Positions 2,046 through 49,215 of a stretch of 64,000 nucleotides of DNA are shown in pieces. A program made the position numbers and the translations under genes. Where the stretch lies: positions 276 to 64,275 of the forward strand of contig JBDRBB010000025.1 in NCBI GenBank assembly GCA_043823065.1, in the 5' to 3' direction. The stretch comes from Pseudomonadota bacterium. Lineage in GTDB: Bacteria; UBA10199; 2-02-FULL-44-16; DYJF01. The notes beneath the pieces were generated by a model that had not been told where the DNA came from, made no database searches, and worked only from the letters and a program-made list of their open reading frames with translations. Within the stretch, counting starts at the first letter, position 1; every line of letters begins with the position of its first letter.

Positions 2046-3002
2046 TTAAATAGTTTTCCCAATCCAATAAATTTGATCATCAATCTTCTTTTGTTCAATT
2101 AACCCTTGCTCTTGTAATTTTTGCAAATATTTTATTACTTCGTTGGGATGTAAATTAAAAGTACGGGCAATCTGCTCAATAGTGCCTGGCCTGCGCTGAC
2201 ACATGCCTAAAATATCTTGCAGAGAACCTGCACTTTCAATCTGTCTATGCTTAGGAAACGAAGCTATAACTTCTGCCGGCGGTGTAAAACGCCTGGCAAT
2301 TTGCTCCATTTTTTCTTTGCTAACCGCTTGGCATATTACTTCTGCCGGCGGTCTGGATACAGTATTAAGTTGAACCTTGTCCGGCTCAATCAATTTGACA
2401 ATATCAACTAACTGAGCAATCTCTTTATCATTGTCATTTATTCCAACTAATAAAAAAATCTCCAGCCAGATCTTGCCAAAATATTCCTGCCTGAAAGCAA
2501 TTAAACCATCTTTCATTTGTTCAAAACTTACAGCTTGATGCGGACGATTAACCTGCTCGAAACTATCTACCGAACCTGCATCAAGAGAAGGAACGACCAG
2601 GTCGGCTTTAAGCAAAGCCTGACGCACTTGTTTTTGCCATAAAAGCGAGCCATTGGTCAGCACCGCCACCGGAATTTTGGTAAGCTTTTTAATGGCCATA
2701 ATTATTTCCGCCAAATCCGAATGCAAGGTCGGCTCACCTGAACCGGAAAGAGTAATATAATCTGCTTTAATACCTTTAGCTAAAATATCTTTTAGCTCGC
2801 TTAAAATATCTTGAACTGAAACATATTTTTTGCGCTCAACTGTTTTATCTGTGGTTAAGCCCAATTGACAATAAAGGCAATCATAACTGCAGGTCTTGTA
2901 AGGAACAAGATCAAGGCCCAAAGAACGGCCCAAACGTCTGGACAGCACAGGGCCATAAATATGTTTGTATTTTTTTTTAGTTTCAGATGGATTGTAAAAC
3001 AT
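2046..3002 (-). CDS. radical SAM protein with a C-terminal winged-helix domain
   Basis: N-terminal GPVLSRRLGRSLGLDL, then the CSYDCLYC (CxxxCxxC) radical-SAM cluster motif and a GSGEPTL glycine-rich SAM motif. The C-terminal IEQIARTFNLHPNEVIKYLQKLQEQGLI looks like a winged HTH. Confidence 0.7.
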   Translation of the reverse strand: MFYNPSETKKKYKHIYGPVLSRRLGRSLGLDLVPYKTCSYDCLYCQLGLTTDKTVERKKYVSVQDILSELKDILAKGIKADYITLSGSGEPTLHSDLAEIIMAIKKLTKIPVAVLTNGSLLWQKQVRQALLKADLVVPSLDAGSVDSFEQVNRPHQAVSFEQMKDGLIAFRQEYFGKIWLEIFLLVGINDNDKEIAQLVDIVKLIEPDKVQLNTVSRPPAEVICQAVSKEKMEQIARRFTPPAEVIASFPKHRQIESAGSLQDILGMCQRRPGTIEQIARTFNLHPNEVIKYLQKLQEQGLIEQKKIDDQIYWIGKTI

Positions 3003-3770: not shown

Positions 3771-4103
3771 ATGGTCAGGCCGCACATAAATAGAAGGATT
3801 AGGGGGGAACCTGCTGTCACCTATTTTAAGCCCCAAGGTATCCCTTTAAGGGTATTGGAAGAAATCAACCTTACCCTGGATGGTTTGGAGGCTTTGAAGT
3901 TGGCTGACGAGCAAGGTCTATATCACGACGCAGCAGCTAAAAAAATGGGGGTTTCCCGCCCTACTTTTGGCAGAATACTTGCTCAAGCTAGAAAAACAGT
4001 TGCTACTGCAATTATTCAGGGAAAAGCGCTGCGTATTGAAGGTGGAGTCGTACAGCAGGTGCAACCACGTGGCTGCTGCCGACGAGGTTGGGGTAGATGG
4101 TAA
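3771..4103 (+). CDS. DUF134 (UPF0251) family putative DNA-binding protein
   Basis: MVRPHINRRIRGEPAVTYFKPQGIPL...LDGLEALKLADEQGLYHDAAAKKMGVSRPTFGRILAQARKTVA is the typical DUF134 sigma-70 region-4-like architecture. The C-terminal 20 aa may be read-through. Confidence 0.7.
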   Translation: MVRPHINRRIRGEPAVTYFKPQGIPLRVLEEINLTLDGLEALKLADEQGLYHDAAAKKMGVSRPTFGRILAQARKTVATAIIQGKALRIEGGVVQQVQPRGCCRRGWGRW

Positions 4104-4129
4104 ATTAATTTAAATAAAGGAGGTGTTTT

Positions 4130-4510
4130 ATGCCAAGAGGAGATGGAACAGGCCCAATGGGCCAAGGACCAAAAACAGGTAAAGCAATGGGCCATTGCGC
4201 TGGTTTTAACACACCTGGCTACTTGAATTCCGGACGAGGATTGTTCGGCGCCGGTCGTGGCGGCATGCCCTGGGGAGGCGGACGAGGCCGCGCTTGGGGA
4301 GGCGGCAGAGGCAGAGGTTTTGCCCAAGGCTTTGGCCGTGGGTGGAGTCCAGCACCAGCCTGTGATTATGGCTGGGATTATGCACCTCAACCCATCAGCC
4401 CAGAAGATGAACGCACTTACTTAAACGATCAATTAGTTTTTTTGGAAAAAGAAATTCAGGAAATCAAAAAACGCCTAGCTCAAATTGACGAAAAAAAGGA
4501 CAAAAAATGA
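4130..4510 (+). CDS. DUF5320 family protein (Gly/Arg-rich, C-terminal coiled coil)
   Basis: Starts MPRGDGTGPMGQGP, as the paralog at 4889 does. It has a GGRGRAWGGGRGRGF low-complexity segment and a C-terminal coiled coil (LEKEIQEIKKRLAQIDEKK). A strong SD precedes the start. Confidence 0.6.
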   Translation: MPRGDGTGPMGQGPKTGKAMGHCAGFNTPGYLNSGRGLFGAGRGGMPWGGGRGRAWGGGRGRGFAQGFGRGWSPAPACDYGWDYAPQPISPEDERTYLNDQLVFLEKEIQEIKKRLAQIDEKKDKK

Positions 4511-4866
4511 AAATATTAATTACAGCAACAGATAATTCATTAGATGCTCAAGTCGATCCGCGTTTTGGCCGGGCTAAGTTTTTTGCTGTTTATGAAACTG
4601 ATAATGATCAAGTTGAATTCATAAGCAATGAACAAAATCTAAATGCTGCCAGCGGAGCTGGAATTCAAGCTGGTTCAAATGCTGTTAAAACAGGAACAAA
4701 AGTTGTAATTACCGGCAACTGCGGTCCAAAAGCTTTTCGTACTTTAAATGAAGCAGGCATTAAAATTATTAGTGGAGCAAGCGGAACAATTAAAGAAGTG
4801 GCTGAAAAATTTAAGAAAGGTGAATACCAATACTCAACTGAAGCAAATGTTGAAGGACATTGGTAA
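4507..4866 (+). CDS. NifX/NifB-like dinitrogenase FeMo-cofactor biosynthesis domain protein
   Basis: MKILITATDNSLDAQVDPRFGRAKFFAVYE... and ...GNCGPKAF...AGIKII are typical of the small NifX/NafY-like family. The start overlaps the upstream stop (ATGA). Confidence 0.7.
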   Translation: MKILITATDNSLDAQVDPRFGRAKFFAVYETDNDQVEFISNEQNLNAASGAGIQAGSNAVKTGTKVVITGNCGPKAFRTLNEAGIKIISGASGTIKEVAEKFKKGEYQYSTEANVEGHW

Positions 4867-4888
4867 ACCTTAAATAATAGGAGGAACT

Positions 4889-5110
4889 ATGCCCAGAGGT
4901 GATGGTACCGGTCCATTTGGCCAAGGTCCAAGTGGTGGAGGCGGTGGTAGGGGAGCAGGCGGACGTGGTCGCCAAGGTGGTTTTGCCGCCGGCCCAGGCG
5001 GAGAATGTATGTGTCCAAAGTGCGGGCAAAAAACTGCTCACACTCGCGGCACTCCCTGTAACAGCATGAAATGCCCTAAATGCGGTACTTTAATGACTAG
5101 GTCTCTATGA
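4889..5110 (+). CDS. DUF5320 family protein with a C-terminal zinc ribbon
   Basis: MPRGDGTGPFGQGP N-terminus, a GGGGRGAGGRGRQGG tract, then two CPKCG motifs (a Cys4 Zn ribbon). A strong SD is present. Confidence 0.55.
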   Translation: MPRGDGTGPFGQGPSGGGGGRGAGGRGRQGGFAAGPGGECMCPKCGQKTAHTRGTPCNSMKCPKCGTLMTRSL

Positions 5111-5961
5111 TTATAACCATAGGAAGTGGAAAAGGCGGCACAGGCAAAACCACTGTAGCCACAAATCTTGCCTTGTGTCTGGAAAAACATAATATCCCGG
5201 TTCAATTTATAGACTGCGATGTTGAGGAACCTAATGCTAATCTGTTCCTAAAAGCAGATATTAAATCCAGAGAACCTGTAACAGTAATGGTACCAGAGAT
5301 AGATGAAAAACTCTGCATCCATTGCGATCAGTGTGCAAAGTTTTGCCGATTTAATTCTTTGGTAGTTTTTCCAGATAAAGTGCTGATATTCCCAGAAATG
5401 TGCCATTCTTGCCAGGGTTGTGTCATCATCTGCCCATTTGATGCCATAAAACCAAAACAACGAGCAATTGGCACAATCGAACTTGGGCAATTAAAGCAAA
5501 TGAAATTTGCCCAGGGCTTAATAAATATTGGTGAAGCCAGAGCCACACCAGTGATTGCCAAACTGCAATCCTTTATAGCTCCTAATCTAACAACTATTTT
5601 AGATGCGCCTCCTGGTACGTCTTGCCCATTTGTGGAAACACTTAAAAAAAGCGATGTGTGCGTATTGGTAACAGAGCCCACACCTTTTGGCTTAAACGAT
5701 TTGAAACTAGCAGTGGAAGTCACTGAAATCTTTAACATTCCCAGAGGTATAATAATTAATCGTTCTGATATCGGCGATGATCAAGTTGAAAAATACTGCC
5801 AGGAAAAACAAATTGAAATCTTAATGAAAATTCCACATGACCTGAAAATTGCCCAGGCCTATTCTAATGGCATCCCTATTGTTGAAGCATTACCTGAGTA
5901 TGAAAATAAATTTTTGGAGCTACATAAAAAAATAATTAAATTGAAAGAAAACAAGAGATGA
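5107..5961 (+). CDS. MinD/Mrp-family P-loop ATPase with a 4Fe-4S ferredoxin insert
   Basis: Deviant Walker A GSGKGGTGKTT. It has the CIHCDQCAKFC and CHSCQGCVIICP Fe-S motifs and the architecture of the '(4Fe-4S)-binding ATPase' family. Confidence 0.8.
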   Translation: MIITIGSGKGGTGKTTVATNLALCLEKHNIPVQFIDCDVEEPNANLFLKADIKSREPVTVMVPEIDEKLCIHCDQCAKFCRFNSLVVFPDKVLIFPEMCHSCQGCVIICPFDAIKPKQRAIGTIELGQLKQMKFAQGLINIGEARATPVIAKLQSFIAPNLTTILDAPPGTSCPFVETLKKSDVCVLVTEPTPFGLNDLKLAVEVTEIFNIPRGIIINRSDIGDDQVEKYCQEKQIEILMKIPHDLKIAQAYSNGIPIVEALPEYENKFLELHKKIIKLKENKR

Positions 5962-6851
5962 CCAAAACCATTGTCATAATTAGCGGCAAAGGCGGCACTG
6001 GCAAAACCAGCATAACAGCTTGCCTGGCCCTTTTAGCCAAAAAAGCTGTTCTAGCAGATTGCGATGTGGATGCTGCTGATCTTCACTTATTGCTTTCACC
6101 TAAAATTCAGGAAGAAAAACCTTTTATAAGCGGAGAACAAGCTTTGATTGATCCTGAAAAATGCATTAATTGTGATAAATGTCGCCGGGCTTGCACCTTT
6201 TCGGCTATTAATGAAACTTATGCTGTTAATCCAATCGATTGCGAAGGCTGTGCAGCTTGCACCCTTGTCTGTCCAGTAAATGCTATCACCATGATTCCAA
6301 GTGAGTGCGGCAAATCTTTTATTTCAGAAACCAGGGCCGGCCCCATGGCTCATGCCAAACTTTTTCCAGGAAAAGAAAACTCCGGAAAACTTGTTTCCTT
6401 GGTCAGATCAAAAGCTCAAGAATTAGCCAAGCAAAATAATGCTAATTTTATTCTGGTAGATGGACCACCAGGAGTTGGTTGCCCGGTTATTGCCTCAATT
6501 GGCAATACAGATATTGCCTTAATTGTTACTGAACCAACAGTATCTGGAGTTCACGATTTAAAACGTGCCCTGCAATTAACTCAACATTTTAAAATTAATT
6601 CTGCAGTACTTATTAACAAAAGCGATATCAATGAACAAATCTCAACAGAGATTGAAGATTTTTGTAATTCTCAAAATATAATAATTGCCGGCAAAATTCC
6701 TTATACAACCGAGTTTGTAAAAGCTCAACTTGCCGGCCAAACCATAATCGAATACATAAAAAAGGAGAACAAAGATGAAGATAGCTATACCCCTAGCCAA
6801 CGGCAAATTATCACTGCATTTCGGTCATTGCGAGAATTTTGCTTTAGTTGA
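5958..6851 (+). CDS. MinD/Mrp-family P-loop ATPase with a 4Fe-4S ferredoxin insert (paralog)
   Basis: GKGGTGKTS Walker A plus CINCDKCRRAC and CEGCAACTLVCP. The start overlaps the upstream stop. The 3' 77 nt overlaps the next gene, so the tail may be over-called. Confidence 0.8.
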   Translation: MTKTIVIISGKGGTGKTSITACLALLAKKAVLADCDVDAADLHLLLSPKIQEEKPFISGEQALIDPEKCINCDKCRRACTFSAINETYAVNPIDCEGCAACTLVCPVNAITMIPSECGKSFISETRAGPMAHAKLFPGKENSGKLVSLVRSKAQELAKQNNANFILVDGPPGVGCPVIASIGNTDIALIVTEPTVSGVHDLKRALQLTQHFKINSAVLINKSDINEQISTEIEDFCNSQNIIIAGKIPYTTEFVKAQLAGQTIIEYIKKENKDEDSYTPSQRQIITAFRSLREFCFS

Positions 6852-11403: not shown

Positions 11404-11433
11404 TTTGACAATATGCCGATATTATAGGTATAA
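11404..11433 (+). promoter_or_regulatory. sigma-70-like promoter (TTGACA-N18-TATAAA) for the downstream gene
   Basis: TTGACA at 11404..11409 and TATAAA at 11428..11433 with an 18-nt spacer. The ORF-track TTG start lies inside this -35 box, so the true start is the ATG at 11459. Confidence 0.35.
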
Positions 11434-11458
11434 AGATGCCTCTTTAAGGAAAGAATTC

Positions 11459-12703
11459 ATGGATCCAATTTCTTCAATAATTTCCAACTATTACGATATC
11501 TGGCTATCTAACCCTGAAACCACAAGTTCTGTGGGACAAAATGGCTATGGCTATGAATTTGATGAAAACGGCCAAATAGCTGCTATTTATGATCCCCAAG
11601 GCAATTGCGTTGGCTATCGCGAACAAGAAATATTTATTATCGAGCAAGAAGATGCTACCTATTATTATCAGATCCAGGAAGATGGCTCTTTAATTGAAGT
11701 AGAAAATCCTGATACGTTGCAATGCTTCCTGTCTGAAGATGATTTTATCCTGCCCCAGCCACCAATAGTTGCTCAAATTGAACCTTGGCAAATGGCGCCT
11801 GTACTTATTAGAGTGCCAGAAGTTAATCCAGTAATTGCCAACCCAGTTTCAAACCCAAATAATGTTAATCAAGATCGGGAAATCGTTGAAGCACCTGAAT
11901 CTCCTTTAAGTAATAATCCATCACTATGGGCTTCTTTGTCTAACTCTAATGCTGATTTGCTACTAACTGTAGTTTCAATAGCAACTTTTCCTCCTTTAAC
12001 CAGAGTTGCTTTTGATATTTTTACAAATAGCTTTGCTTCAAGCAATCCAGTCTTAAGGGCAGCACATAGCCCTCAGCCAGCGCAAACTTCAACAGGATTA
12101 CAAATTAGTCAAGCTGTGGAATATATTGTCGAACTAGCTGTAACCGCAGCTGTATTGTCTTATAACTCAAATGGCCAAGTGAGTTTTGCAGATGCTTTTG
12201 GTAACTTAGTAAGGTCCGAAATAGTTACAGCTGTTGGCATATCTGTTATGCCTTTGCTAGCCAATGTTTTTACTTCAAGAACTCAACCAGGTGTGATTCA
12301 AGAAAATACTGCACCAGAACAATCTCCGACTATGGTTTTGCCTTTAAACAGACCAATGCTTAGAAATACAGCAGCAAATAATGCGGCAGTTATAAAACCT
12401 ATATTAAATCCTGTCCATTCTCCAAGCGTAGTACGCTCATCTGGATTATTATCCTGGCCCTCAACCAATTTAAATTTAAACGAAACTGCATATAGAGCAG
12501 CTTATGCGGCCTTTATGCTCCCTATTTTTGAATTACCCAGAATTGCCAGCCATATTCCTAACATTGTTGCTGCAGCCAGAGCTAATGCTTCCCGAGACAT
12601 CCCAGAAGTAAACTCCAGGGGCGACAATGGCCGTCAAAATGACCAAGAGTCAGACGGACGAAATTTCTACCAAGACGAAAATCCTGAAGAAGAACAGGCA
12701 TAA
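11459..12703 (+). CDS. hypothetical protein, effector-like (no signal peptide; Pro/Asn/Ser-rich with internal hydrophobic segments and an acidic tail)
   Basis: Start moved to ATG at 11459 (MDPISS) with the SD aaggaaag upstream. There are no recognisable catalytic motifs. Two or three internal hydrophobic stretches (LLLTVVSIATFPPL, AVTAAVLSY, AVGISVMPLLANVF) sit between low-complexity P/N/S regions. Confidence 0.45.
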   Translation: MDPISSIISNYYDIWLSNPETTSSVGQNGYGYEFDENGQIAAIYDPQGNCVGYREQEIFIIEQEDATYYYQIQEDGSLIEVENPDTLQCFLSEDDFILPQPPIVAQIEPWQMAPVLIRVPEVNPVIANPVSNPNNVNQDREIVEAPESPLSNNPSLWASLSNSNADLLLTVVSIATFPPLTRVAFDIFTNSFASSNPVLRAAHSPQPAQTSTGLQISQAVEYIVELAVTAAVLSYNSNGQVSFADAFGNLVRSEIVTAVGISVMPLLANVFTSRTQPGVIQENTAPEQSPTMVLPLNRPMLRNTAANNAAVIKPILNPVHSPSVVRSSGLLSWPSTNLNLNETAYRAAYAAFMLPIFELPRIASHIPNIVAAARANASRDIPEVNSRGDNGRQNDQESDGRNFYQDENPEEEQA

Positions 12704-13020: not shown

Positions 13021-15696
13021 TTAACACAGCCTTTCAAGTTGTACTTGAAGTTCTTGCAGTAACTTATTGTCTATTTGAGAAGTGAAAATTATCTTACCTT
13101 TTACACCTAGTTCAGCACCATGATGTTTGAGCAGGCCAAAATTGCACATTAGTTTTAAAGAATTGGTGAGATTAATCCTTGAAATAGCTTCAGAATGCTT
13201 AATATGCCCCAAAACATGCATATTTTTACCAGTAGCAATCATTTGTTTAACCAAATCTTTTTCACTCTTGTTTTTAAAATTTGCCCAGCGCAAAGAATTA
13301 AGGGCAATTTTTTGGGCTTCAAAAAAATTTTTTAGCAAACCTGCAAATGTCGCCAACACAACTGCACCTTCAATGTTTAATTTGAATTTGCCGCTTTTGT
13401 CTACACTTAAAACTTGCTTAGAAAGCAGAAAACCAAACACTTCGTTAATCTTGGCTTCAATGTTTTCCGCAGAATCAAATAAAAATTCAAATTTCAAGAA
13501 ATTCTGACATACTTGATAATTTTCTACTAAATCCTCTGGCTGAACTCCTTCGCTATAATCCAACCTTTTCAACAAAAGATTGGCTACTATACTAATATCC
13601 ACTAAAAAATGAATACTGGTGTTTTTGTAATAATCAAGCTGCAGACGTTTTTCCTCATCTATAATATAATATTTTTCCTGATGGGGGTACACATTTTCAG
13701 GATCGTGCAAACTAACCACTCCTTGATTCACAAAATTCTGCAAGGCTTTAGTAATTGCCCCCTGCTCATCAAAAGCTAAACTGGCAGCAGTTGGTTTGTG
13801 GCCTGCCTTTATATAATCCAAAAAAAGCATGGCGTGGCCAAGCAAATCGCTTTGCTTCATACCTTTGCGAGTTTGAGTCAGAATTGCGCTGGCCAAAAGC
13901 GCAGAAGGCGTAACCACCAAATTTTTATTTATTTGCTGACAAATTTTATTCACCAAGATTTTACTTTGTTCTTCTCTATCAACCTGCTTAGCAACTTCCT
14001 GATAAGAAATAGGTTCGCCAAAGTTCATATATACTTTTCCATGACGTTGTTTTTGTTTTTTTAAATATTTAAACAGCCGCAAGAAGTGCGTAAACCGTTC
14101 TTGGTGCTTTGCTGCACCACGCACTTCCTTTTCATAGGATTTCTGTTCAATCACTTGATCATAAGAAAAAGAAACTGGCACAAAGATAATATCTGGAAGT
14201 TGAAATGTGTTCACCGCATTAGTTAACATTCTAACCATGCCAAATTTAGGAGCCAACAATTTACCGGAGCGTGAACGAGCGCCTTCAATAAAAAACTCTT
14301 GCGAATATCCCTCTTCCAAAAGCACGCCCAGATAGGTTTCCACGCAAGCTTGATATAGTTTATTATTTTCAAAACTCCTTCTGATAAAATAGGCGCCGCA
14401 ATGCCTGAAAATATTTCCCAAAGGCCAAAAAGAAAGATTAATGCCTGCTGCGACCTGCGGAGGGGTCATGTAATTATTATGCAAAATATAGGTAAGCAAA
14501 AGGTAGTCTAAATGACTCTTGTGATTAGGCACAAAAACTAAAGGTTGGTTGGCATATATTTTCTTTAACTCTTTTAGCCTATCTTCATTATAATCCAAAC
14601 CATCATAAAGAGAATTCAGGCGCCAACCCACAAGCGCCTCGCCAAGTTCTACATACGTGTAGTTAATATCGGCAATTATCTCTTTTAAATATTTCTGCGC
14701 CAAATCTCTAAGATCATCTGTTTGTTTGTGCATTTCCAAGGCTAACTCACAAAGCAAGTTCTGAAACTTATCTTCAATCATGACCCTTTCTATAAACCAA
14801 GCCCGGTTGCGAATTATAGGACCGGTGATTGCGCGTCTTTCTAAATTTAAGACTTGCAGCAACTTCTCCCCAACTTGTTGGATGGTTTGATCAGCCAGCA
14901 ATTCTTGAGCGCTGATTGGGTGACCGATTTTAGCTATAGCCCGACGATGATAGCTGCGCCAAAACCACACAGTTTTACGAATTGCGCCGGGATTTTCTTT
15001 TTCGCCAAATAAAATATCTACCAAAGATTTTTTGGCGCGCGGCGGCCGACGATCCCAAATAAATTCCAGGGGCACAAAAAAAACAGGTTTTTCAGGATTG
15101 GTCCTGGCTAAAGCAGCTTGAATAAGCTTTTGCGAATAAGAAAGAAAAATCCCCTTTTCCTCCAACTCGGTGGGCACAACATAAAGTAAAATGGGTTGGC
15201 CTTGGGCCACCAAGTTAGTTACTTGCCCTGATGAAATTGGATCTATGATTCCACCATATTCAGCAAAATGATTTAACTGAGTTAATAGGGTTGCTTTCAA
15301 ATCTGACCAAGGCATGAACCGCCGCACTGATATGCCATTGGTGAATTGCGACAAAGGCAAGCCTTCTTCTAAAAACAAGTGTTGAAAAAAATTAAATTCC
15401 AACTGACCAGCTTGTCTTTGCAAATAAATCAACGTGCCGGTTTGCGCAGCTTGCCTTAAAGCTTCTGGCGCGGTTATTTCATAACGAATTTTTTTGAAAA
15501 AAGGAGAGAAGATCAGACGATAGAGAAAATTACCCCTAGGAAGCATGGCCGAGGCATAAATATCCTTTTTTGGTGTTTTAGCTATATCACACCATTTTGG
15601 TTTGATTTTTTTAACCAACCAATAAAAGGGATATAACCCCAGAAGCCCAACTGGTATTTTAAGTTTCTCTGGGGAAGCAATTTCCATAGTTGACAA
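13021..15696 (-). CDS. plsB: glycerol-3-phosphate 1-O-acyltransferase
   Basis: 891 aa. The HxxxxD acyltransferase motif sits in VFVPNHKSHLDYLLLTYIL, almost identical to E. coli PlsB VPCHRSHMDYLLLSYVL. Size and downstream FGRxxGAxxxxR-like blocks are consistent with PlsB. Confidence 0.85.
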   Translation of the reverse strand: MSTMEIASPEKLKIPVGLLGLYPFYWLVKKIKPKWCDIAKTPKKDIYASAMLPRGNFLYRLIFSPFFKKIRYEITAPEALRQAAQTGTLIYLQRQAGQLEFNFFQHLFLEEGLPLSQFTNGISVRRFMPWSDLKATLLTQLNHFAEYGGIIDPISSGQVTNLVAQGQPILLYVVPTELEEKGIFLSYSQKLIQAALARTNPEKPVFFVPLEFIWDRRPPRAKKSLVDILFGEKENPGAIRKTVWFWRSYHRRAIAKIGHPISAQELLADQTIQQVGEKLLQVLNLERRAITGPIIRNRAWFIERVMIEDKFQNLLCELALEMHKQTDDLRDLAQKYLKEIIADINYTYVELGEALVGWRLNSLYDGLDYNEDRLKELKKIYANQPLVFVPNHKSHLDYLLLTYILHNNYMTPPQVAAGINLSFWPLGNIFRHCGAYFIRRSFENNKLYQACVETYLGVLLEEGYSQEFFIEGARSRSGKLLAPKFGMVRMLTNAVNTFQLPDIIFVPVSFSYDQVIEQKSYEKEVRGAAKHQERFTHFLRLFKYLKKQKQRHGKVYMNFGEPISYQEVAKQVDREEQSKILVNKICQQINKNLVVTPSALLASAILTQTRKGMKQSDLLGHAMLFLDYIKAGHKPTAASLAFDEQGAITKALQNFVNQGVVSLHDPENVYPHQEKYYIIDEEKRLQLDYYKNTSIHFLVDISIVANLLLKRLDYSEGVQPEDLVENYQVCQNFLKFEFLFDSAENIEAKINEVFGFLLSKQVLSVDKSGKFKLNIEGAVVLATFAGLLKNFFEAQKIALNSLRWANFKNKSEKDLVKQMIATGKNMHVLGHIKHSEAISRINLTNSLKLMCNFGLLKHHGAELGVKGKIIFTSQIDNKLLQELQVQLERLC

Positions 15697-15728
15697 GAAT
15701 GATACGGAGTTAATACAATACTTGCAAT

Positions 15729-16301
15729 ATGTCTTTTCTCAACGAAAAAACCAAAGAAATTAATTACAAAGTATTATATTACGGTCCAGCTTTAGCTGGC
15801 AAAACCACCACGTTGCGCCAAATCTATCAAAAAATTAATCAAAAATCCAAGGGACAGATAATTTCTGTGGCTGATACTAACAACAATACCTTGTATTTTG
15901 ATTTTATTCCACTCACCTTGGGCAAGGTTAAGCAATATCAAGTGCACCTTCATTTATATAGCGTACCAGATGACTTAGCCTATAAATCTGCCCAAAAATT
16001 AATCGCTAAGGGAATTGATGGTGTAGTTTTTGTGGCAGATTCACAACTGGAAAAAATGGAAGCTAATTTGGAAAGCATGAAAAAACTTCAAGAAATTCTG
16101 ATTCATGAAGGTGTTGATCTAGGCCAAATACCCATGGTCATACAATATAACAAACGTGACCTGCCAGAAGCTGTACCGCTAGCAGAAATGCAAAAATTGC
16201 TAAATCCCAACCAAAATGCAGAATTTGAAACAATCGCTACTAGCGGCACAGGTATCTTGGAAACCTTGCAGGAAATTAGTAAAAAAGTGCTGAAATCTTA
16301 A
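15729..16301 (+). CDS. mglA: MglA-like Ras-family small GTPase (mutual gliding motility protein A homolog) with both catalytic residues substituted
   Basis: Gapless alignment to M. xanthus MglA over the first 90 residues: MSF.N...EIN.K..YYGP.L.GKTT...IY, TLYFDFIPLTLG, FVADSQLEKMEANLESM, IQYNKRDL (NKxD). No mglB lies adjacent. Confidence 0.8.
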   Translation: MSFLNEKTKEINYKVLYYGPALAGKTTTLRQIYQKINQKSKGQIISVADTNNNTLYFDFIPLTLGKVKQYQVHLHLYSVPDDLAYKSAQKLIAKGIDGVVFVADSQLEKMEANLESMKKLQEILIHEGVDLGQIPMVIQYNKRDLPEAVPLAEMQKLLNPNQNAEFETIATSGTGILETLQEISKKVLKS

Positions 16302-16325: not shown

Positions 16326-17381
16326 TTATTTATGAATCTGATAACCCCAAAAGGTTTTAGACAATTCATAAAGATCTTCATCAACGGTTTTCAATCTTTC
16401 AGCAACCACTGTTAAAGGTTTTTCCACAATATTATTACCATCCAAAGCAACCATAACTCCGAACCGACCTTTGTGTACAGCATCCATAGCAGCAACGCCA
16501 TATCTGGTGGCTAAAACCCGGTCATGAGCGGTTGGGCTTCCACCACGCTGAATATGACCCAATACTGTCACTCTGGTTTCATAACCAGTTTTTTCTTCCA
16601 GAATTTTACTTAAACGATTACCAACTCCACCTAATCTAACATGACCAAACTCATCTTTTTCTTCGGAAATCAATTGTTCTTTGCCTCCAAATTTGGCCCC
16701 TTCAGCTACCACAATAATGCTAAAATTTGTGCCATTATCGTGACGATCTCTAAGCACTTTACAAACTTCATCTATATCAATTGGTCTTTCTGGAATGAGA
16801 ATAGCATCAGCTCCGCCAGCAATGCCAGCATACGTGGCGATCCAACCAGCATGCCTGCCCATGACTTCGCAAACCAAAACGCGGTCGTGCGATTCTGCAG
16901 TGGTGTGCAAACGATCAATTGCTTCAGTAACAATATTAATGGCTGTGTCAAAACCAAAAGTAAAATCAGTGCCATTTAAATCATTATCAATGGTCTTGGG
17001 TACACCCACAACTGGATAACCCATTTCATTAAGTTTATTAGCTGCACCCAAAGTATCTTCACCACCAATAGCAATTAAGGCATCCAATTTTAAGTTTTTG
17101 AAATTTGCTTGAGCCTTTTTAGTTGTCTCTTCATCCTTAAAAATATTGGTGCGAGACGTACCTAAAATGGTTCCTCCCCTGTGCAACACACCAGCCACTG
17201 TTGCCCTATTTAAGGGCATGGTAATTCCTTCTACCAAACCACGCCAGCCGTGCTTGATACCAACCACTTCATAACCATTATACATTAAGGCGCGACGCAC
17301 CACTGCTCTAATTACCGCATTTAAGCCTGGGCAATCTCCTCCACCAGTCAATACGCCAATTCTTTTTTTTGTCATAACCAA
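16326..17381 (-). CDS. pfkA: 6-phosphofructokinase, probably the pyrophosphate-dependent type
   Basis: RIGVLTGGGDCPGLNAVIRAVV and MGRHAGW motifs. GGEDT replaces E. coli GGDGS (Gly104 to Asp), and VPKTIDND replaces LPGTIDND (Gly124 to Lys). That residue pair is associated with PPi specificity. Confidence 0.8.
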   Translation of the reverse strand: MVMTKKRIGVLTGGGDCPGLNAVIRAVVRRALMYNGYEVVGIKHGWRGLVEGITMPLNRATVAGVLHRGGTILGTSRTNIFKDEETTKKAQANFKNLKLDALIAIGGEDTLGAANKLNEMGYPVVGVPKTIDNDLNGTDFTFGFDTAINIVTEAIDRLHTTAESHDRVLVCEVMGRHAGWIATYAGIAGGADAILIPERPIDIDEVCKVLRDRHDNGTNFSIIVVAEGAKFGGKEQLISEEKDEFGHVRLGGVGNRLSKILEEKTGYETRVTVLGHIQRGGSPTAHDRVLATRYGVAAMDAVHKGRFGVMVALDGNNIVEKPLTVVAERLKTVDEDLYELSKTFWGYQIHK

Positions 17382-29390: not shown

Positions 29391-30971
29391 TTATTCAAAT
29401 GCATCCATTACCATTTGCAAACCAGCGCCTGATGGTGGTGCGTAATCTGTGTTAAGTAGCTGCATTTGTGCAAAATTTCTAGCTTCTGGATTGGTGCGAA
29501 TTTCTTCTTGGCCAATTTTGGCCAAATATATGCCGCCAACTATGGCTACTAACGCTGCGCCCACCCAGCCACCAGCAATTACTAAACCTTCAGTTAAACT
29601 TGCTTCTGTACTAATTAAACCAGCGCCAATTAAATATTCTCTAGCACCTGCAATTAAAAAAGTAGATGTTAAACCATCAAAAAGTAAATCTTGTGGTGAA
29701 TCAGGGGCTTGGTCCCAACTTAAGCCTGATTCCTGCCTAATGTGTCTAACTGAAGCAAATGTGGCTACTCCACCAAAAGCGCCTCCGCCAAGCAATTGCA
29801 AGGCTGAACCTAAAGACACGCCTTCAGCTAATAAGGCACCTAAACCGCTGCCTAGCATTCCCAGAATCGCGCCCATTCTTTCTTCATTACTTAAAGGCCG
29901 GCCGCGTAAATTTTCACTACCCATATCTGCAGCAAAAAAAGCTAGGGGTGTAAAAAAATCCACACCGCGAAAACTAGTGGCAAAACCTTCCATCCTAAAA
30001 ACTTCTGGACGAACATATCTTATTCTCATTGAACCCATTCTTTGAACATCATTATGAATGCGTAAAAGCTCTACAGCATGGGGCGGCAAACAATCTGTAG
30101 CCACACCAGGGAGAGCCTGTCGAAAATTTCCACCACGGTTTAAGTTTTCAATTAAGGAAGGCGTATCTGCAGTAGTCAGCAAAGGGTTATGCTCACTAAA
30201 TAAAAGCCTTATAGCATAAGACCTCATCAATTCAGGGCCTGTTATAAAATGGGCTCTGCCCATAACTTCTGGATGTCTATTAGCAAGGTCAGCAATTCTA
30301 GCTTCATCAACAATAATACGCACTGGATATTGGGTGGGTTCATTTGCCACTTCAAAGCTAGGCACAACTGCCATCAGCCTTGGCGTATTATCCCTTAGTC
30401 CATTTTGTTCAATATTCTCTGCTAAAAAACGAGCAAAATTCACAAAACCTCGAGTTTCTGGATTAATCCCATCTGGCCCTGCAGGATGCCAGCGCCAGTC
30501 CAAAAGATCCATAACCCGGTTGGCCTTAAAAAAATTTCTTGTCTCCCCAGTTAAGTCTCTTAAAAGAGCTGTACTGCGCGGACTAGCTTTTAGCTGTCTG
30601 GGTTCTGGAACAAGATTAAAAATACTATTTATTCCTGGACGGGCTATTTCTGAAAACTCACTACCTACTGAAGCTTCCACAAATATAATTTGCCGCGGAT
30701 ATTCCCAGAGTCCAAAACGAATATTACCTTCTGGAGGAACCCTGGTTATGTCATAAGTTAAGTGTCCTGCTGAATTCTCATTATATTCAATAGCATAAAC
30801 ATTACCCTGTCCCCTTTTAGACAAAACCATACCGCGCGGAATAGCCCTGTGAATATCATGACTTCTTAAAAACTCAGCAAGCGCATCTGGAATTTCTATG
30901 GTTGGTCTAGCTACTGGGGCCATGCTTGGTCCCCTAGTTACAACTATAGATCCTTCACTTCCACTAAACAT
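29391..30971 (-). CDS. hypothetical 526-aa protein with a C-terminal glycine-zipper membrane region (effector/toxin-like)
   Basis: No signal peptide. Arg-rich, unlike the Lys-rich neighbours. The C-terminal 150 aa is Gly/Ala-rich amphipathic (GMLGSGLGALLAEGVSLGSALQLLGGGAFGGVATF...GGWVGAALVAIVGGIYLAKIG). Confidence 0.45.
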   Translation of the reverse strand: MFSGSEGSIVVTRGPSMAPVARPTIEIPDALAEFLRSHDIHRAIPRGMVLSKRGQGNVYAIEYNENSAGHLTYDITRVPPEGNIRFGLWEYPRQIIFVEASVGSEFSEIARPGINSIFNLVPEPRQLKASPRSTALLRDLTGETRNFFKANRVMDLLDWRWHPAGPDGINPETRGFVNFARFLAENIEQNGLRDNTPRLMAVVPSFEVANEPTQYPVRIIVDEARIADLANRHPEVMGRAHFITGPELMRSYAIRLLFSEHNPLLTTADTPSLIENLNRGGNFRQALPGVATDCLPPHAVELLRIHNDVQRMGSMRIRYVRPEVFRMEGFATSFRGVDFFTPLAFFAADMGSENLRGRPLSNEERMGAILGMLGSGLGALLAEGVSLGSALQLLGGGAFGGVATFASVRHIRQESGLSWDQAPDSPQDLLFDGLTSTFLIAGAREYLIGAGLISTEASLTEGLVIAGGWVGAALVAIVGGIYLAKIGQEEIRTNPEARNFAQMQLLNTDYAPPSGAGLQMVMDAFE

Positions 30972-31593: not shown

Positions 31594-32534
31594 GGATTGT
31601 CACTCATATCCAAGTGCCTGGACTTAAAACCATAACCCATTACATCGCTAACTTCAGTTAAGATGATAAATGCATCTGGATCAATTTTACGCACCCAATC
31701 TCTTAAAATATTGGTCTGCCGGCGATTGATTACGCACATCACAATCTTTTTCTTTTTATGAGAATAGGCCCCTTCACCATAAAAATAGGTTACTCCCCTA
31801 CCTAATTTATCCATTAAAGATTCAGCAATTTCTTCTGACTTGTCGGTAATGACAAAAACCCCTTTAGTATAGGGCAAACCTTCTGCAGTTAAATCGCAAA
31901 CCTTGGAAGCTAAAAATAAATTAAAAAGTCCCCAAATAATTATATTGGGATTTTTAAAAACAATGCCAATGAGAAAAATAATTCCGGTTTCAATTACCAA
32001 ATAACCAGTGGTGATGGACATATTGTAATATTTTTTTAGAATGGCCACTGGAATATCTGTGCCGCCAGTGGAACCTTTTGCCCTAAAGATAATCCCGATT
32101 CCAGCGCCTAAAAGAATTGAACCAGCCAGAGCAGCCAGCAAGATATTGTCAGTCATAGCCCACTCGTGTATGGGCTTGCCCTGATTATACTGCTCTAAAA
32201 TTTTCTGCATAAAACTCAGCTTATAAATATTTTTTACCGCCAATAAATCAGTAAACACTGAGCCTAACAAAAATCCAGTAAATGTGCCCATACCGAATTG
32301 TTTACCAACCAACCACACGCCCAAAACAAACAAAGGGATATTCATGGCTAGCATACACACACCAGCAGGAATGCCAAAAAAGTGATAAAAAATCTGGCTT
32401 AAACCACCAACGCCGCCTGGCGCAATTTTATAAGGAATTAAAAACCAGGCATAACCCATGCCGTAAATAATGGAGCCAATTATAATACCAATAGAATTGC
32501 GAATAAAGTGTCGGTGATGAATAATATTTAACAT
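31587..32534 (-). CDS. YitT-family membrane protein (DUF161 + DUF2179)
   Basis: GYAWFLIPYKIAPGGVGGLSQI (YitT N-terminal motif) and a C-terminal DUF2179 soluble domain. Confidence 0.7.
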   Translation of the reverse strand: MLNIIHHRHFIRNSIGIIIGSIIYGMGYAWFLIPYKIAPGGVGGLSQIFYHFFGIPAGVCMLAMNIPLFVLGVWLVGKQFGMGTFTGFLLGSVFTDLLAVKNIYKLSFMQKILEQYNQGKPIHEWAMTDNILLAALAGSILLGAGIGIIFRAKGSTGGTDIPVAILKKYYNMSITTGYLVIETGIIFLIGIVFKNPNIIIWGLFNLFLASKVCDLTAEGLPYTKGVFVITDKSEEIAESLMDKLGRGVTYFYGEGAYSHKKKKIVMCVINRRQTNILRDWVRKIDPDAFIILTEVSDVMGYGFKSRHLDMSDNPH

Positions 32535-33817
32535 ATTTCCTCACTAGTATTTAAGGTTTGGTCAGACAACATTTCATCTTGTCTAGAAACTTTACGGCGA
32601 AATCTTTTTACAATAATAATCGTGATATATATCCAAACTAGGCACAAAACTAAAATCAACCAGGTGGTCAAGCTTTCAGCATGCAAAGCAATCAGACCCA
32701 TTAATAGAACAGATACGCCCACCTTGGCCAGGCGATACATAAACATATCAATAATAGACTTGCCCTGGGTTTTTTCCACATAACTAAGTGGGATATAAAG
32801 CATCTCTCTGGCAAATTTATAAATACTATAATCAAAACATTTACTGGCTACTTTCAAACCTGCGCCAGTCATAAACAAAGGCACAATGGCAAAAATTCCC
32901 ACGCCAGAACCCAGCAAGACCGGCACTATTAAAAGCACCAAAGGTACGCCAGCAAGTCTTAGCACTGGGCCGGTTAAAATATTTAGACCCATGGTTGCTA
33001 TTTCAATTACTGCGTAAACAATGCCAATCATGCGCGTGCGCTGATCCAAATCGGCAAAAGCTTGTTCCAGAATGCCGTTAAATTCAAAATCAATTAAGGT
33101 AATCACCAGCTGCACTAACAACACCAAGAGCAAAATCAAAGAAAGATATGAACTTTTTCTCATCACACCTACTGCATCTCTTAAGTGCACTGTTTTTTCC
33201 TGCTGATGATGCACCACTTCACCACTAGCAACCTTGGCAAAAAACAGACAAAAAACCCAACTGATCAGAAGAATAGGTACAATCAACCAAAGCAAGTGTA
33301 GGCTACCAAAATATGCTGCTAAATAACCAACCGCCAGGTTTCCCAAAAAAGCGCTACTAGAAGCCATGACTCCAAAAAAACCATAAGCCCAACGCGCGGT
33401 TTTAATGGGAAATACCGAATTGGCAAAACTATAAAAAATTACCACCAGAACTACAATGTAAATATCTTTCCAAACATACAGGGCATAAAAACTTCCCGGC
33501 AGTTTATACTGGCAAGCTAAAATCATACCTACTAACAAGATAGCGCTGATCGCGCAAACATTACCCATCAAGTGCATTAAATCCATGCGCGCCAAGTTGC
33601 GCACATAAATCCAAAGGGTTAAAAACATACCCAAGCCGACAAAAAACCAAACCTGCGGCAAAGCCTTGCTAGTATGGACTTGCAAAAATAAAGATTCAGT
33701 AGCTGGACGCGCCAAAGAATAGGTTAACAAGAGTATAAAAGCCAAAAAACTTAAGCCTGCAAAGCGAATTTTCTTTAAGATTTGGGGATTTTTTAGATCC
33801 ATAATTGCCAGTTGCAT
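32528..33817 (-). CDS. 12-TM transporter, possibly TLC/NTT (ATP:ADP antiporter-like) family
   Basis: 429 aa with about 12 TM helices. The N-terminal LTYSLARPATESLFL resembles the TLC-family F-N-Y-T-I-L-R-D-T-K-D-x-L block. The family assignment is tentative and it could be a divergent MFS. Confidence 0.35.
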   Translation of the reverse strand: MQLAIMDLKNPQILKKIRFAGLSFLAFILLLTYSLARPATESLFLQVHTSKALPQVWFFVGLGMFLTLWIYVRNLARMDLMHLMGNVCAISAILLVGMILACQYKLPGSFYALYVWKDIYIVVLVVIFYSFANSVFPIKTARWAYGFFGVMASSSAFLGNLAVGYLAAYFGSLHLLWLIVPILLISWVFCLFFAKVASGEVVHHQQEKTVHLRDAVGVMRKSSYLSLILLLVLLVQLVITLIDFEFNGILEQAFADLDQRTRMIGIVYAVIEIATMGLNILTGPVLRLAGVPLVLLIVPVLLGSGVGIFAIVPLFMTGAGLKVASKCFDYSIYKFAREMLYIPLSYVEKTQGKSIIDMFMYRLAKVGVSVLLMGLIALHAESLTTWLILVLCLVWIYITIIIVKRFRRKVSRQDEMLSDQTLNTSEEIC

Positions 33818-37609: not shown

Positions 37610-37704
37610 CTCGTGCTTACTGGCGTGATTGATTCAATGTTGTCATTCTGAGCCAAAAACGAAGGATGACCCAATAAAAACTAACAACAAAAAGGGGGTA
37701 AAGC

Positions 37705-48204: not shown

Positions 48205-49215
48205 TTAATTTGATGTCATCAACTTAATAACATCACCCTTTTTAGGTTGGCCGGAAATGGCTTTGGTCACTGCATAGCGTTCGTAAACTTTAGTAACTTG
48301 CAAAACTCCTATTTCAAATTCTTCCACACCAAGCTCAACACCTTTGCCGCCTACAGACTTGCGACCAATCACGCTAAATTGCATACCTTCTTTAAGTCCA
48401 GCGTTTGAACCAGCATTAATATAATATTGTCCGCTAGTAACTTTAATGATCTGGCCTTCCCAAGTTTGACCTTCCATTTTTTTATCAATCCAGCTGATAC
48501 ATTTGTTTACGGCGCGGTCAAACATACGATCGAAATCTCGATTGCGATCAGAACTATCACCTGTGGTGTAAAACATCATATCTCGGAAACTACGCATACT
48601 AGTAGATGAAGTACGCGCATCATAATGATCTAAAACCTTACCTGATTCTGGATCGCGTTGAATGCAAGTTAATGTCAAACTTACTGTATCTGAATTTAAA
48701 TCAAAGCTATGCAGAGGCGCCCCAGTTAAATCTTCAGCAGTATCAAAAGCTGTACCTGTGCCAAATCTGCTTTCACCCTGCTGAACATCAAAGTTAAACA
48801 AGGCCTGGGCGGCAATTGGTTTGTGCAAATATTTTCCCTGAGCCTGGGCCATCATTTTCTGCATAGCCTTTTGCATCTTTGCTGCATAAACTTGGGCTTC
48901 AGCAGCAGTTTTAGGTGGAGGACCTGCTGGCATTTCCGATTCTTCTTTCTCTTCTTCAGTTTCTGCTGGCACTACCACTACATAACGGCCAGACTTTTCC
49001 AGATCTTTTTGAACACGGTTACGCAGCAATTCATCTAAAGTGGCTGTATTCATACCAGCCATCATTAATTGCCTGGTATTCACTCGGCCCACAGCCACCA
49101 CCTTTTTTAATCCATCTGTCTCATTGTTTTTCTTGGCAAAGACCGATGAATTTGCGCTAAATAATCCCACGCCCAAAATCAGGGCAACCAAAATAATTTT
49201 ATTTATATTCTTCAT
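48205..49215 (-). CDS. secreted hypothetical protein (336 aa)
   Basis: Signal peptide MKNINKIILVALILGVGLFSANSSVFA and no recognisable domain. Co-transcribed orientation with pyk. Confidence 0.45.
   Translation of the reverse strand: MKNINKIILVALILGVGLFSANSSVFAKKNNETDGLKKVVAVGRVNTRQLMMAGMNTATLDELLRNRVQKDLEKSGRYVVVVPAETEEEKEESEMPAGPPPKTAAEAQVYAAKMQKAMQKMMAQAQGKYLHKPIAAQALFNFDVQQGESRFGTGTAFDTAEDLTGAPLHSFDLNSDTVSLTLTCIQRDPESGKVLDHYDARTSSTSMRSFRDMMFYTTGDSSDRNRDFDRMFDRAVNKCISWIDKKMEGQTWEGQIIKVTSGQYYINAGSNAGLKEGMQFSVIGRKSVGGKGVELGVEEFEIGVLQVTKVYERYAVTKAISGQPKKGDVIKLMTSN

What the first reader, a model, noticed from the sequence alone, without database searches (positions are those of the whole stretch)
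15729..16301. Orphan MglA-like GTPase with both catalytic residues replaced (Arg53 to Asn, Gln82 to Asp)
The protein aligns without gaps to M. xanthus MglA over the first 90 residues. The P-loop GPALAGKTT, TLYFDF and the NKxD motif are all conserved. Position 53 is the intrinsic arginine finger in MglA and is Asn here (ADTNNNTLYFD against TETDRTLFFD). Position 82 is the catalytic Gln and is Asp here (VPDDL against VPGQV). No mglB (roadblock/LC7 GAP) gene is adjacent; the flanking genes are plsB and pfk. This predicts a GTPase-deficient protein that binds nucleotide, a polarity-type switch that would be permanently on or regulated by other means.
Basis: partly seen in the sequence, partly recalled or inferred. 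Interest (0 to 1): 0.6.

Follow-up and report, generated by a model that had tools for sequence, protein, structure and literature searches.

The report
MglA-like GTPase lacking its catalytic residues
This is a real, conserved gene for a bacterial Ras-like polarity switch (MglA) that keeps every nucleotide-binding motif but has lost the residues needed to hydrolyse GTP. It is the most extreme member of an uncultivated lineage whose mglA genes have no mglB partner gene nearby.

Summary

- **Identity.** ORF 15729-16301 (+) encodes 190 aa that align without gaps over residues 1-188 to M. xanthus MglA (E 8e-62). The predicted fold matches MglA-GTPγS (TM 0.89).
- **Substitutions.** R53→N and Q82→D are correct.
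- **Retained motifs.** All nucleotide and Mg2+ motifs are intact: GxxxxGKT, T54, D58, NKRD.
- **Rarity.** Among 150 diverse family representatives, R53 is present in 148, Q82 in 146 and G81 in all 150. Only one other known protein (82% identical, same plsB/pfk neighbours) shares the N53/D81/D82 state.
- **Selection.** dN/dS between the two is 0.10 and the promoter is conserved, so the gene is functional.
- **Lineage.** It nests (97/100 bootstraps) in a larger clade from uncultivated 'Deltaproteobacteria'/Bdellovibrio-like MAGs. That clade has P/A21, an acidic E/D82 and a variable residue 53.
- **No mglB nearby.** No clade locus has mglB within the up to 10 kb of flank held. Canonical controls have mglB next to or about 0.7 kb from mglA.
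- **Precedent.** The closest case is Bdellovibrio MglA (S21, no MglB).

Loss of hydrolysis is plausible but untested, because the conserved acidic residue at 82 could support a different chemistry. Verdict: a new variant of a known kind, of moderate interest.

The parts
15729..16301 (+). mglA-like gene, 190 aa (identical to NCBI MFH1875200.1, 'GTPase domain-containing protein')
   Evidence: ORF. Gapless alignment to M. xanthus MglA over 1-188, E 8e-62. AF2 model with pLDDT 82, best PDB match 6izw_A (MglA-GTPγS-MglB), TM 0.89. dN/dS 0.098 against the orthologue in L001. Accession.
15783..15809 (+). G1/P-loop codons 19-27, GPALAGKTT. G19, G24, K25, T26 and T27 are intact; position 21 is Ala (Mx G21, Ras G12)
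   Evidence: P0002 has Pro at position 21.
15885..15890 (+). Codons 53-54: Asn53 in place of the intrinsic arginine finger, followed by the conserved G2 Thr54
   Evidence: There is no Arg anywhere in loop 44-53. N53 is AAT here and AAC in L001, a synonymous difference.
15960..15974 (+). G3/switch II motif, codons 78-82: SVPDD instead of TVPGQ
   Evidence: G81 is present in 150/150 representatives and T78 in 146/150. D81 occurs only in P0001 and P0002.
15993..15995 (+). Codon 89: Gln in place of the near-invariant switch II Arg89 (aligned by position counting with Ras R68)
   Evidence: R in 99% of all other family members examined.
16149..16160 (+). G4 motif NKRD (codons 141-144), intact guanine-specificity motif
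15690..15719 (+). σ70-type promoter-like element TTGACA-N18-TACAAT, ending 9 nt before the ATG (short or no leader)
   Evidence: 11/12 match. 42 of the 48 nt ending at the ATG (45 upstream plus the start codon) are identical in L001, although synonymous sites are near saturation.
13021..15687 (-). Divergent neighbour: PlsB-type glycerol-3-phosphate acyltransferase. The true start is probably ATG at 15687, not TTG at 15696
   Evidence: Pfam Acyltransferase + GPAT_C. Syntenic in L001.
16326..17381 (-). Convergent neighbour: phosphofructokinase
   Evidence: Pfam PFK, E 2e-115. 90% identical in L001.

Best explanation
The gene encodes a vertically inherited descendant of Group-1 MglA, the bacterial Ras-like polarity GTPase. 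It still binds guanine nucleotide and Mg2+ but no longer runs the MglB-driven GTPase cycle.

In canonical MglA, an MglB dimer pushes the arginine-finger loop so that R53 and T54 enter the active site. Q82 then positions the attacking water, and G81 senses the γ-phosphate.

This lineage has no mglB next to mglA. Position 21 became P/A, Q82 became acidic, and R53 began to drift. On the branch leading to this protein and its one close relative, R53 became N, G81 became D, T78 became S and R89 became Q, which remodelled switch II. The new state was then held under strong purifying selection.

The most likely outcome is a hydrolysis-impaired, pseudo-GTPase-like MglA. Its activity would be set by expression level, localisation or partner binding rather than by a GAP. 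It would act, as MglA does in Bdellovibrio and Myxococcus, as a nucleotide-loaded adaptor for polar machinery.

Shown here: homology, residue mapping, retention of binding motifs, rarity of the substitutions, purifying selection, local absence of mglB, and clade membership. Inferred: loss of hydrolysis, the nucleotide state, and the cellular role.
For: - **Homology and fold.** Gapless alignment to solved M. xanthus MglA. The AF2 model matches MglA structures at TM 0.80-0.89, against ≤0.71 for Ras, Rab and Arf.
- **Binding residues kept.** G19, G24, K25, T26, T27, T54, D58, N141, K142 and D144 are conserved in both P0001 and P0002.
- **Catalytic and sensor residues lost.** N53, D81, D82, A/P21, S78 and Q89. 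The family-wide frequencies of the ancestral residues are 148/150, 150/150 and 146/150 for R53, G81 and Q82, and 99% for R89.
- **Functional gene.** dN/dS is 0.098 (dS 1.16), equal to plsB at 0.097. N52 and N53 differ synonymously between the two genomes. The promoter-like element is conserved.
- **Clade placement.** The protein sits inside the non-Q82 clade in 97/100 NJ bootstraps, with the six diagnostic columns removed. TolB from the window finds the same uncultivated lineage, including the contig of L027.
- **No MglB nearby.** None was found in the 64 kb window or in the up to 10 kb of flank held for the 26 clade loci. The controls L036 and L037 have mglB directly upstream of mglA, and L035 has it about 0.7 kb upstream.
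- **Literature.** MglB brings R53 and T54 into the site, and Q82L cannot hydrolyse GTP (PMC6876712). Bdellovibrio MglA has S21, lacks MglB, is proposed to be GTP-locked, and works with RomR and a TPR protein (PMC3983030).
Against: - No biochemical data exist for this protein or for any member of the clade.
- The acidic residue at 82 is strictly conserved across the clade, which suggests a role, possibly catalytic (a general base, or a second metal site).
- In Ras, G12P is non-transforming, and Q61E has been reported with increased intrinsic GTPase (PMC6813200, PMC2987813).
- A GAP acting in trans could supply the missing residues, as RapGAP does for Rap.
- An mglB gene or a second mglA elsewhere in the genome cannot be excluded.
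- No polarity, pilus or gliding gene lies in the window or next to the clade's genes to support the proposed cellular role.
Confidence: 0.5

Rival explanations
1. It is still a working GTPase with rewired chemistry. The conserved acidic residue at 82, perhaps with D81 and N53, activates the water or binds a second metal, giving GAP-independent self-timed hydrolysis. Alternatively, an unrelated GAP supplies Arg/Gln/Asn in trans.
For: - Position 82 is E or D in all 54 non-Q82 proteins among the 120 nearest clusters and in 23/26 clade loci. It is never hydrophobic or random, which points to selection for an acid.
- The clade consensus P21 + E82 matches two Ras substitutions that do not simply lock Ras. 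G12P is non-transforming (PMC6813200), and Q61E is reported with increased intrinsic GTPase (PMC2987813, citing Frech 1994).
- T54 and D58 are retained.
Against: - The window protein also lacks R53, and there is no other Arg in loop 44-53.
- It lacks G81, which is invariant in 150/150 representatives.
- Der 1986, as cited in PMC6813200, found Ras Q61E about 8-fold slower than wild type.
- No candidate GAP gene is conserved next to the gene.
Confidence: 0.25
2. It is a switch-dead scaffold locked in the 'off' or GDP-like conformation. G81D and two adjacent carboxylates repel or fail to sense the γ-phosphate, so the protein cannot adopt the active state. It would then act through nucleotide-independent binding.
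For: - G81 is equivalent to Ras G60, whose backbone amide senses the γ-phosphate. From general knowledge, Ras G60A and Gαs G226A block the GTP-induced change.
- R89 (aligned with Ras R68), a near-invariant switch II residue, is also lost.
- The branch leading to P0001/P0002 is accelerated: 55.6% identity to clade members that are about 66% identical to one another.
Against: - T54 (the γ-phosphate/Mg2+ sensor of switch I), D58 and the whole P-loop stay conserved under dN/dS 0.1. That would be unnecessary if the GTP state were never used.
- The AF2 model superposes slightly better on GTPγS-bound MglA (TM 0.89) than on GDP-bound MglA (0.83-0.85). This is weak evidence.
Confidence: 0.17
3. It is a decaying remnant (pseudogene in progress) left after loss of the MglA/MglB system.
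For: Several otherwise invariant residues are lost at once, and mglB is absent locally.
Against: - The reading frame is intact and full length.
- dN/dS is 0.098, the same as the essential plsB neighbour, and the protein is 82% identical between two genomes whose synonymous sites are near saturation.
- The promoter is conserved.
- All nucleotide-binding motifs are intact.
Confidence: 0.03
4. It belongs to another Ras-like subfamily (Arf/SRβ, Rup, or MglA Groups 2-5) in which positions 53 and 82 are not catalytic.
For: Pfam assigns it only to Arf (E 7e-10) and SRPRB. MglA Groups 2-5 naturally lack the arginine finger (PMC4316618).
Against: - Identity to Group-1 MglA is 50% over the full length without gaps, while Arf proteins match at E ≥1e-4.
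- Groups 2-5 have a GTPGQ G3 motif (PMC4316618), not xVPxx.
- Phylogeny places the protein inside a Group-1-derived clade.
- Pfam has no dedicated MglA model, so the Arf label is only the nearest generic hit.
Confidence: 0.02

Closest known systems
MglA of Myxococcus xanthus / Thermus thermophilus (Group 1 MglA; PDB 6izw, 6h5b, 3t12)
   Same: - About 50% identity, gapless over 188 residues to M. xanthus MglA.
- The same fold, including the arginine-finger loop region.
- The same P-loop, T54, D58 and NKRD.
- xVPxx in place of the DxxG aspartate, with a hydroxyl residue at position 78.
   Different: - R53→N, Q82→D, G81→D, G21→A, T78→S and R89→Q.
- No adjacent mglB.
- The C-terminus is about 5 residues shorter.
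MglA of Bdellovibrio bacteriovorus (Bd3734; Milner et al. 2014, PMC3983030)
   Same: - An orphan MglA in a genome without mglB.
- A natural substitution of G21 (S21 there; A21 or P21 here).
- Proposed to work outside a GAP-driven cycle.
- Some relatives of the window protein come from MAGs labelled Bdellovibrio or Pseudobdellovibrionaceae.
   Different: - According to the paper, the G2 and PM3 motifs of Bd MglA are conserved (about 82% similarity to M. xanthus MglA), so it appears to keep R53 and TVPGQ.
- The window protein has lost these residues as well.
- The window protein belongs to a separate clade marked by TLYFDF and an acidic residue at 82 (most other members also carry GKST; this protein keeps GKTT).
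- The partners of Bd MglA (RomR, TPR protein Bd2492) are known; none is known here.
SofG of M. xanthus (orphan MglA paralogue)
   Different: SofG keeps the arginine finger, which is required for its GTPase activity (PMC4316618). From general knowledge it also carries terminal extensions. The window protein is a bare 190-aa domain without the finger.
Eukaryotic nucleotide-binding pseudoGTPases (Rnd1/3, RhoH, RGK family), from general knowledge and not tested here
   Same: Small Ras-like proteins with substitutions at the G12, G60 and Q61 equivalents. They retain nucleotide binding but lack a normal GTPase cycle, and are regulated by expression, localisation or partners.
   Different: They are unrelated lineages of the superfamily. 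The analogy is functional only.
Rap / RapGAP (catalysis without Gln in the GTPase)
   Same: Rap is a Ras-like GTPase that naturally lacks the catalytic Gln.
   Different: In Rap the missing residue is supplied in trans by the GAP's Asn thumb. No GAP candidate was found here.

Membership tests
MglA family, Group 1 (Wuichet & Søgaard-Andersen 2014, PMC4316618) | Full-length sequence and fold homology to characterised MglA | tested here: met
   E 8e-62, gapless over 1-188. Foldseek TM 0.89 to 6izw_A.
MglA family, Group 1 (Wuichet & Søgaard-Andersen 2014, PMC4316618) | Intrinsic arginine finger next to the G2 threonine ('conserved in all Group 1 members') | tested here: not met
   N53-T54, with no Arg in loop 44-53.
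MglA family, Group 1 (Wuichet & Søgaard-Andersen 2014, PMC4316618) | G3 motif TVPGQ | tested here: not met
   SVPDD.
MglA family, Group 1 (Wuichet & Søgaard-Andersen 2014, PMC4316618) | G1 GxxxxGK[ST] and G4 [NT]KxD nucleotide-binding motifs | tested here: met
   GPALAGKT and NKRD.
MglA family, Group 1 (Wuichet & Søgaard-Andersen 2014, PMC4316618) | Phylogenetic descent from Group 1 | tested here: met
   The protein nests in a clade that branches among Group-1-type sequences, in 97/100 bootstraps with the diagnostic columns removed.
MglA/MglB GTPase-GAP module | A cognate mglB (Roadblock/LC7) gene, usually adjacent to mglA | tested here: not met
   No MglB was found in the 64 kb window, on the L001 contig, or in the up to 10 kb of flank held for the 26 clade loci. 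The controls L036 and L037 (directly upstream) and L035 (about 0.7 kb upstream) have it. The rest of the genome was not available.
MglA/MglB GTPase-GAP module | MglB-stimulated GTP hydrolysis | not testable with these tools
   This needs a biochemical assay.
Bdellovibrio-type orphan MglA (Milner 2014) | Non-glycine at position 21 together with absence of mglB | tested here: inconclusive
   A21 (P21 in P0002) is met. Absence of mglB is shown only for the window and its flanks, not for the whole genome.
Bdellovibrio-type orphan MglA (Milner 2014) | Interaction with RomR and a TPR (Bd2492/SgmX-like) protein; control of type IV pili | not testable with these tools
   No RomR-like, TPR or pilus gene lies in the window. 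The rest of the genome is unavailable.
PseudoGTPase (nucleotide-binding, catalytically inactive class) | Binding motifs retained while catalytic residues are lost | tested here: met
   Shown at sequence level only.
PseudoGTPase (nucleotide-binding, catalytically inactive class) | Demonstrated lack of GTP hydrolysis | not testable with these tools
   This needs a biochemical assay.

The most novel reading that the evidence does not exclude
Two linked claims. First, a whole uncultivated lineage (dozens of species-level MAGs) has replaced the MglA/MglB GTPase-GAP cycle with a GAP-free MglA that has altered active-site chemistry (P21, acidic 82, drifting residue 53). Second, the window protein is the end point of that process: a natural bacterial Ras-like pseudoGTPase that keeps nucleotide binding but has lost the arginine finger, the catalytic Gln and the γ-phosphate-sensing Gly, and is maintained by selection. 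That would be a bacterial counterpart of Rnd/RhoH/RGK proteins. It would also be a natural experiment on how a polarity switch works without switching.
Probability: 0.3. Interest if true: 0.6.

Novelty: new variant of a known kind. Interest (0 to 1): 0.42.

Why it matters
MglA is the model for Ras-like polarity control in bacteria. Its mechanism (an intrinsic arginine finger plus Gln, positioned by MglB) was described as conserved in all Group-1 members.

A selected, expressed variant that keeps the nucleotide pocket but lacks R53, Q82 and G81 shows that the scaffold can be reused without the canonical cycle. So does the larger clade with no mglB near mglA, P21 and an acidic residue at 82.

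This extends the Bdellovibrio precedent of S21 with no MglB. It offers ready-made natural mutants for asking which MglA functions need hydrolysis and which need only nucleotide-dependent binding. It also raises a testable idea: an acidic residue at the Gln position might support GAP-independent hydrolysis.

The practical impact is limited for now. The organisms are uncultured, and no partners or phenotype are known.

Tried and rejected
- **Searches for mglB.** I used phmmer with the MglB of control locus L036, and a 3-sequence MglB HMM run with --max, against all ORFs ≥50 aa of the window and of 39 loci. Only the three control loci hit.
- **Pfam annotation.** About 57 window ORFs were scanned. 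None carries a Roadblock, receiver/RomR-like, TPR, pilus or gliding domain.
- **Conserved-neighbour clustering in the clade.** Only housekeeping genes recur: transaldolase/FSA, folK, dapF/dapA/dapB and rho. No signalling partner is conserved. The 418-aa gene with no Pfam match just upstream of mglA in L002-L004 is not found elsewhere.
- **Rfam scan of the window.** No RNA families.
- **Exact-sequence look-up.** The look-up of encoding contigs has no record for P0001, so the rest of the MAG could not be reached.
- **Taxonomy from TolB.** The best hits carry only vague MAG names (Pseudomonadota, Deltaproteobacteria). They do link the window to the same lineage as the clade.
- **Tol cluster as a gliding motor.** I considered whether the nearby tolQRA-tolB cluster might be an Agl/Glt-type motor linked to MglA. 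I rejected this because it is an ordinary Tol cluster, sits beyond three intervening genes, and is not a neighbour of mglA in the sister clade.
- **Pseudogene and 'other subfamily' readings.** Both rejected; see the rival explanations.
- **Literature.** A search for MglA together with pseudoGTPase found nothing relevant.

Full report
**The feature is real.** Window 15729-16301 (+) is a 190-codon ORF with an ATG start. Its product is identical to NCBI MFH1875200.1, 'MAG: GTPase domain-containing protein [Pseudomonadota bacterium]', from a 64,693-bp contig. Pfam gives only generic Arf and SRPRB hits. Against PDB sequences, however, it aligns to M. xanthus MglA over residues 1-188 without a single gap (E 8e-62). 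It also aligns to T. thermophilus MglA (E 3e-55, one single-residue gap). An AlphaFold2 model built on 120 homologues has pLDDT 82, with only the switch I/arginine-finger loop 40-55 at low confidence. It superposes best on M. xanthus MglA-GTPγS-MglB (6izw_A, TM 0.89, 188 columns). Ras, Rab and Arf proteins reach TM 0.71 at most. It does not. The fold match to MglA spans 188 columns at 50% identity, which fits the gapless sequence mapping.

**Residue mapping.** Counting along the gapless alignment gives the following.

| Position | M. xanthus MglA | Window protein | Note |
|---|---|---|---|
| 21 | G | A | Ras G12 equivalent |
| 53 | R | N | intrinsic arginine finger |
| 78 | T | S | |
| 81 | G | D | Ras G60, γ-phosphate sensor of DxxG |
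| 82 | Q | D | catalytic Gln |
| 89 | R | Q | aligned with Ras R68, switch II |

There is no other Arg in loop 44-53. Everything needed to bind guanine nucleotide and Mg2+ is kept: G19, G24, K25, T26, T27, T54, D58, N141, K142 and D144.

**How unusual this is.** I tallied 150 representatives of 50%-identity clusters found by an exhaustive HMMER search of 1.84 billion proteins.
- R53 is present in 148, Q82 in 146, G81 in all 150 and T78 in 146.
- R89 is present in 99% of all other family members examined.
- Among 5.8 billion 90%-identity clusters, only one other protein shares the N53/D81/D82 state. This is P0002, 82% identical, from GCA_054920855.1.
- P0002 sits in the same gene order: a 432-aa unknown protein, then plsB, the mglA-like gene and pfk.

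**The gene is functional, not decaying.**
- Between the window and L001, dN/dS is 0.098 (dS 1.16). The neighbouring plsB gives the same value, 0.097.
- N52 and N53 use different synonymous codons in the two genomes.
- A near-consensus σ70 element, TTGACA-N18-TACAAT, ends 9 nt before the ATG. Of the 48 nt ending at the start codon, 42 are identical in L001, even though synonymous sites are near saturation. This suggests a conserved promoter and a very short leader.

**Evolutionary context.** The next relatives (52-61% identity) are not canonical MglA. They form a large clade that accounts for 54 of the 120 nearest clusters and 26 species-level MAG loci.
- Its signature is G21→P/A/S, GKST, TLYFDF and Q82→E or D. 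Three loci keep Q82.
- R53 is usually kept, but is K, H, Q, S or N in a substantial minority.
- The MAGs are labelled Deltaproteobacteria, Pseudomonadota, Bdellovibrio sp. or Pseudobdellovibrionaceae.
- In NJ trees built without the six diagnostic columns, the window protein falls inside this clade in 97/100 bootstraps.
- The window's TolB finds the same lineage, at 60-68% identity. One hit lies on the 1.03-Mb contig that carries locus L027. The gene is therefore vertically inherited.
- The window/P0002 branch is accelerated. These two are 55.6% identical to clade members that are about 66% identical to one another. Purifying selection has acted since then.
- The codons fit a single-step path: Q→E→D at 82, GGT→GAT at 81 and ACC→AGC at 78.

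**Orphan status.** The MglB from a canonical control locus (L036, Robl_LC7 directly upstream of mglA) detects only the three control loci. So does a 3-sequence MglB HMM. No hit falls in the 64 kb window, on the L001 contig, or in the up to 10 kb of flank held for any clade locus. Pfam scans of about 57 window ORFs found no Roadblock, RomR-like receiver, TPR, pilus or gliding protein. In the clade, the gene is consistently beside housekeeping genes: transaldolase/FSA, folK and dapFAB. The rest of the genome could not be examined. 'Orphan' is therefore shown locally, not genome-wide.

**Mechanistic reading.** Published structures show that MglB does not insert a residue into the active site. Instead it forces a lasso movement of loop 44-58 that brings R53 and T54 into the site, and MglA Q82L cannot hydrolyse GTP (PMC6876712). 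[quoted passage not shown] In a lineage without MglB, R53 has nothing to deliver it, which fits its drift within the clade. The closest precedent is Bdellovibrio MglA. It has S21 and no mglB, is proposed to be permanently GTP-bound, and acts with RomR and a TPR protein in pilus-dependent prey invasion (PMC3983030).

The best-supported explanation (confidence about 0.5) is therefore a nucleotide-binding, hydrolysis-impaired MglA descendant. It would work as a constitutive or otherwise-regulated adaptor rather than as a GAP-timed switch.

**Caveats.**
- The acid at position 82 is fixed across the clade, which looks like selection for function.
- In Ras, G12P is the one non-transforming G12 substitution (PMC6813200).
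- Ras Q61E has been reported both with raised intrinsic GTPase (PMC2987813, citing Frech 1994) and with about 8-fold lower GTPase (Der 1986, via PMC6813200).
- The clade, and possibly this protein, might therefore hydrolyse GTP by a different route (rival, about 0.25).
- Conversely, G81D plus R89Q could stop switch II sensing GTP at all, giving a switch-dead scaffold (rival, about 0.17). Conservation of T54 and D58 argues somewhat against that.
- The pseudogene and wrong-subfamily readings are essentially excluded.

**Verdict.** This is a new variant of a known kind (orphan MglA GTPases). Its interest lies mainly in being a natural, selected loss of the complete catalytic set, and in pointing to a clade with no mglB near mglA, P21 and an acidic residue at 82. 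I found no description of that clade in the papers I read or in one targeted literature search. Interest is 0.42.

Noticed in passing
window 15690-15728: A near-perfect σ70 promoter-like element (TTGACA-N18-TACAAT) ends only 9 nt before the mglA-like ATG. This implies a leaderless or very short-leader mRNA with no Shine-Dalgarno sequence. The 48 nt ending at the start codon are 42/48 identical in L001.
   Followed up: partly
window 15687-15696 (-): The mechanical plsB ORF starts at TTG 15696, inside the -35 hexamer. Comparison with L001 suggests the real start is ATG at 15687 (MEIASPEK...).
   Followed up: partly
window 32528-33817 (-): A 429-aa membrane protein has a partial match to the TLC ATP/ADP transporter family (PF03219, E 1.5e-18). 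That family is typical of energy-parasitic or intracellular bacteria, which may hint at the organism's lifestyle.
   Followed up: no
window 3771-6851 (+): A cluster of DUF134 (HTH), DUF5320, a small Nitro_FeMo-Co-like protein and two MinD/ParA-type ATPases with 4Fe-4S inserts. A radical-SAM/HTH gene lies upstream (2046-3002, -). It looks like an anaerobe-type Fe-S module.
   Followed up: no
window 11405-12703 (+): A 432-aa Pro-rich protein with an acidic C-terminus and no Pfam match. Its C-terminal 93 aa are 59% identical in L001 at the syntenic position upstream of plsB. Function unknown.
   Followed up: partly
window 60121-63000 (-), 29391-30971 (-), 36212-39141 (+), 42638-43711 (-), 48205-49215 (-): Several large ORFs (336-959 aa) have no Pfam match at E ≤ 1e-4.
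   Followed up: no
proteins P0121-P0270: 132 of the 150 50%-identity representatives of the MglA family are 280-890 aa long. Most carry the canonical residues at positions 21, 53 and 82. In the four tails examined, the C-terminal extension is a long Glu/Pro/Asp-rich low-complexity sequence. Six scanned proteins had no Pfam domain beyond the GTPase region.
   Followed up: partly
L035 8816-10603: A more distant MglA-like protein (39% identity; G21, R53, Q82, NKVD) has an mglB homologue about 700 bp upstream. It served as a positive control for MglB detection.
   Followed up: partly
L002 344-1600 (also L003, L004): A 418-aa gene with no Pfam match lies 22 bp upstream of, and co-oriented with, the clade's mglA in one species. 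It was not found at any other locus.
   Followed up: yes
window 55842-57221 (+): A spore-photoproduct-lyase-like radical SAM protein (PF20903, E 6e-31) lies next to a family 2 glycosyltransferase.
   Followed up: no
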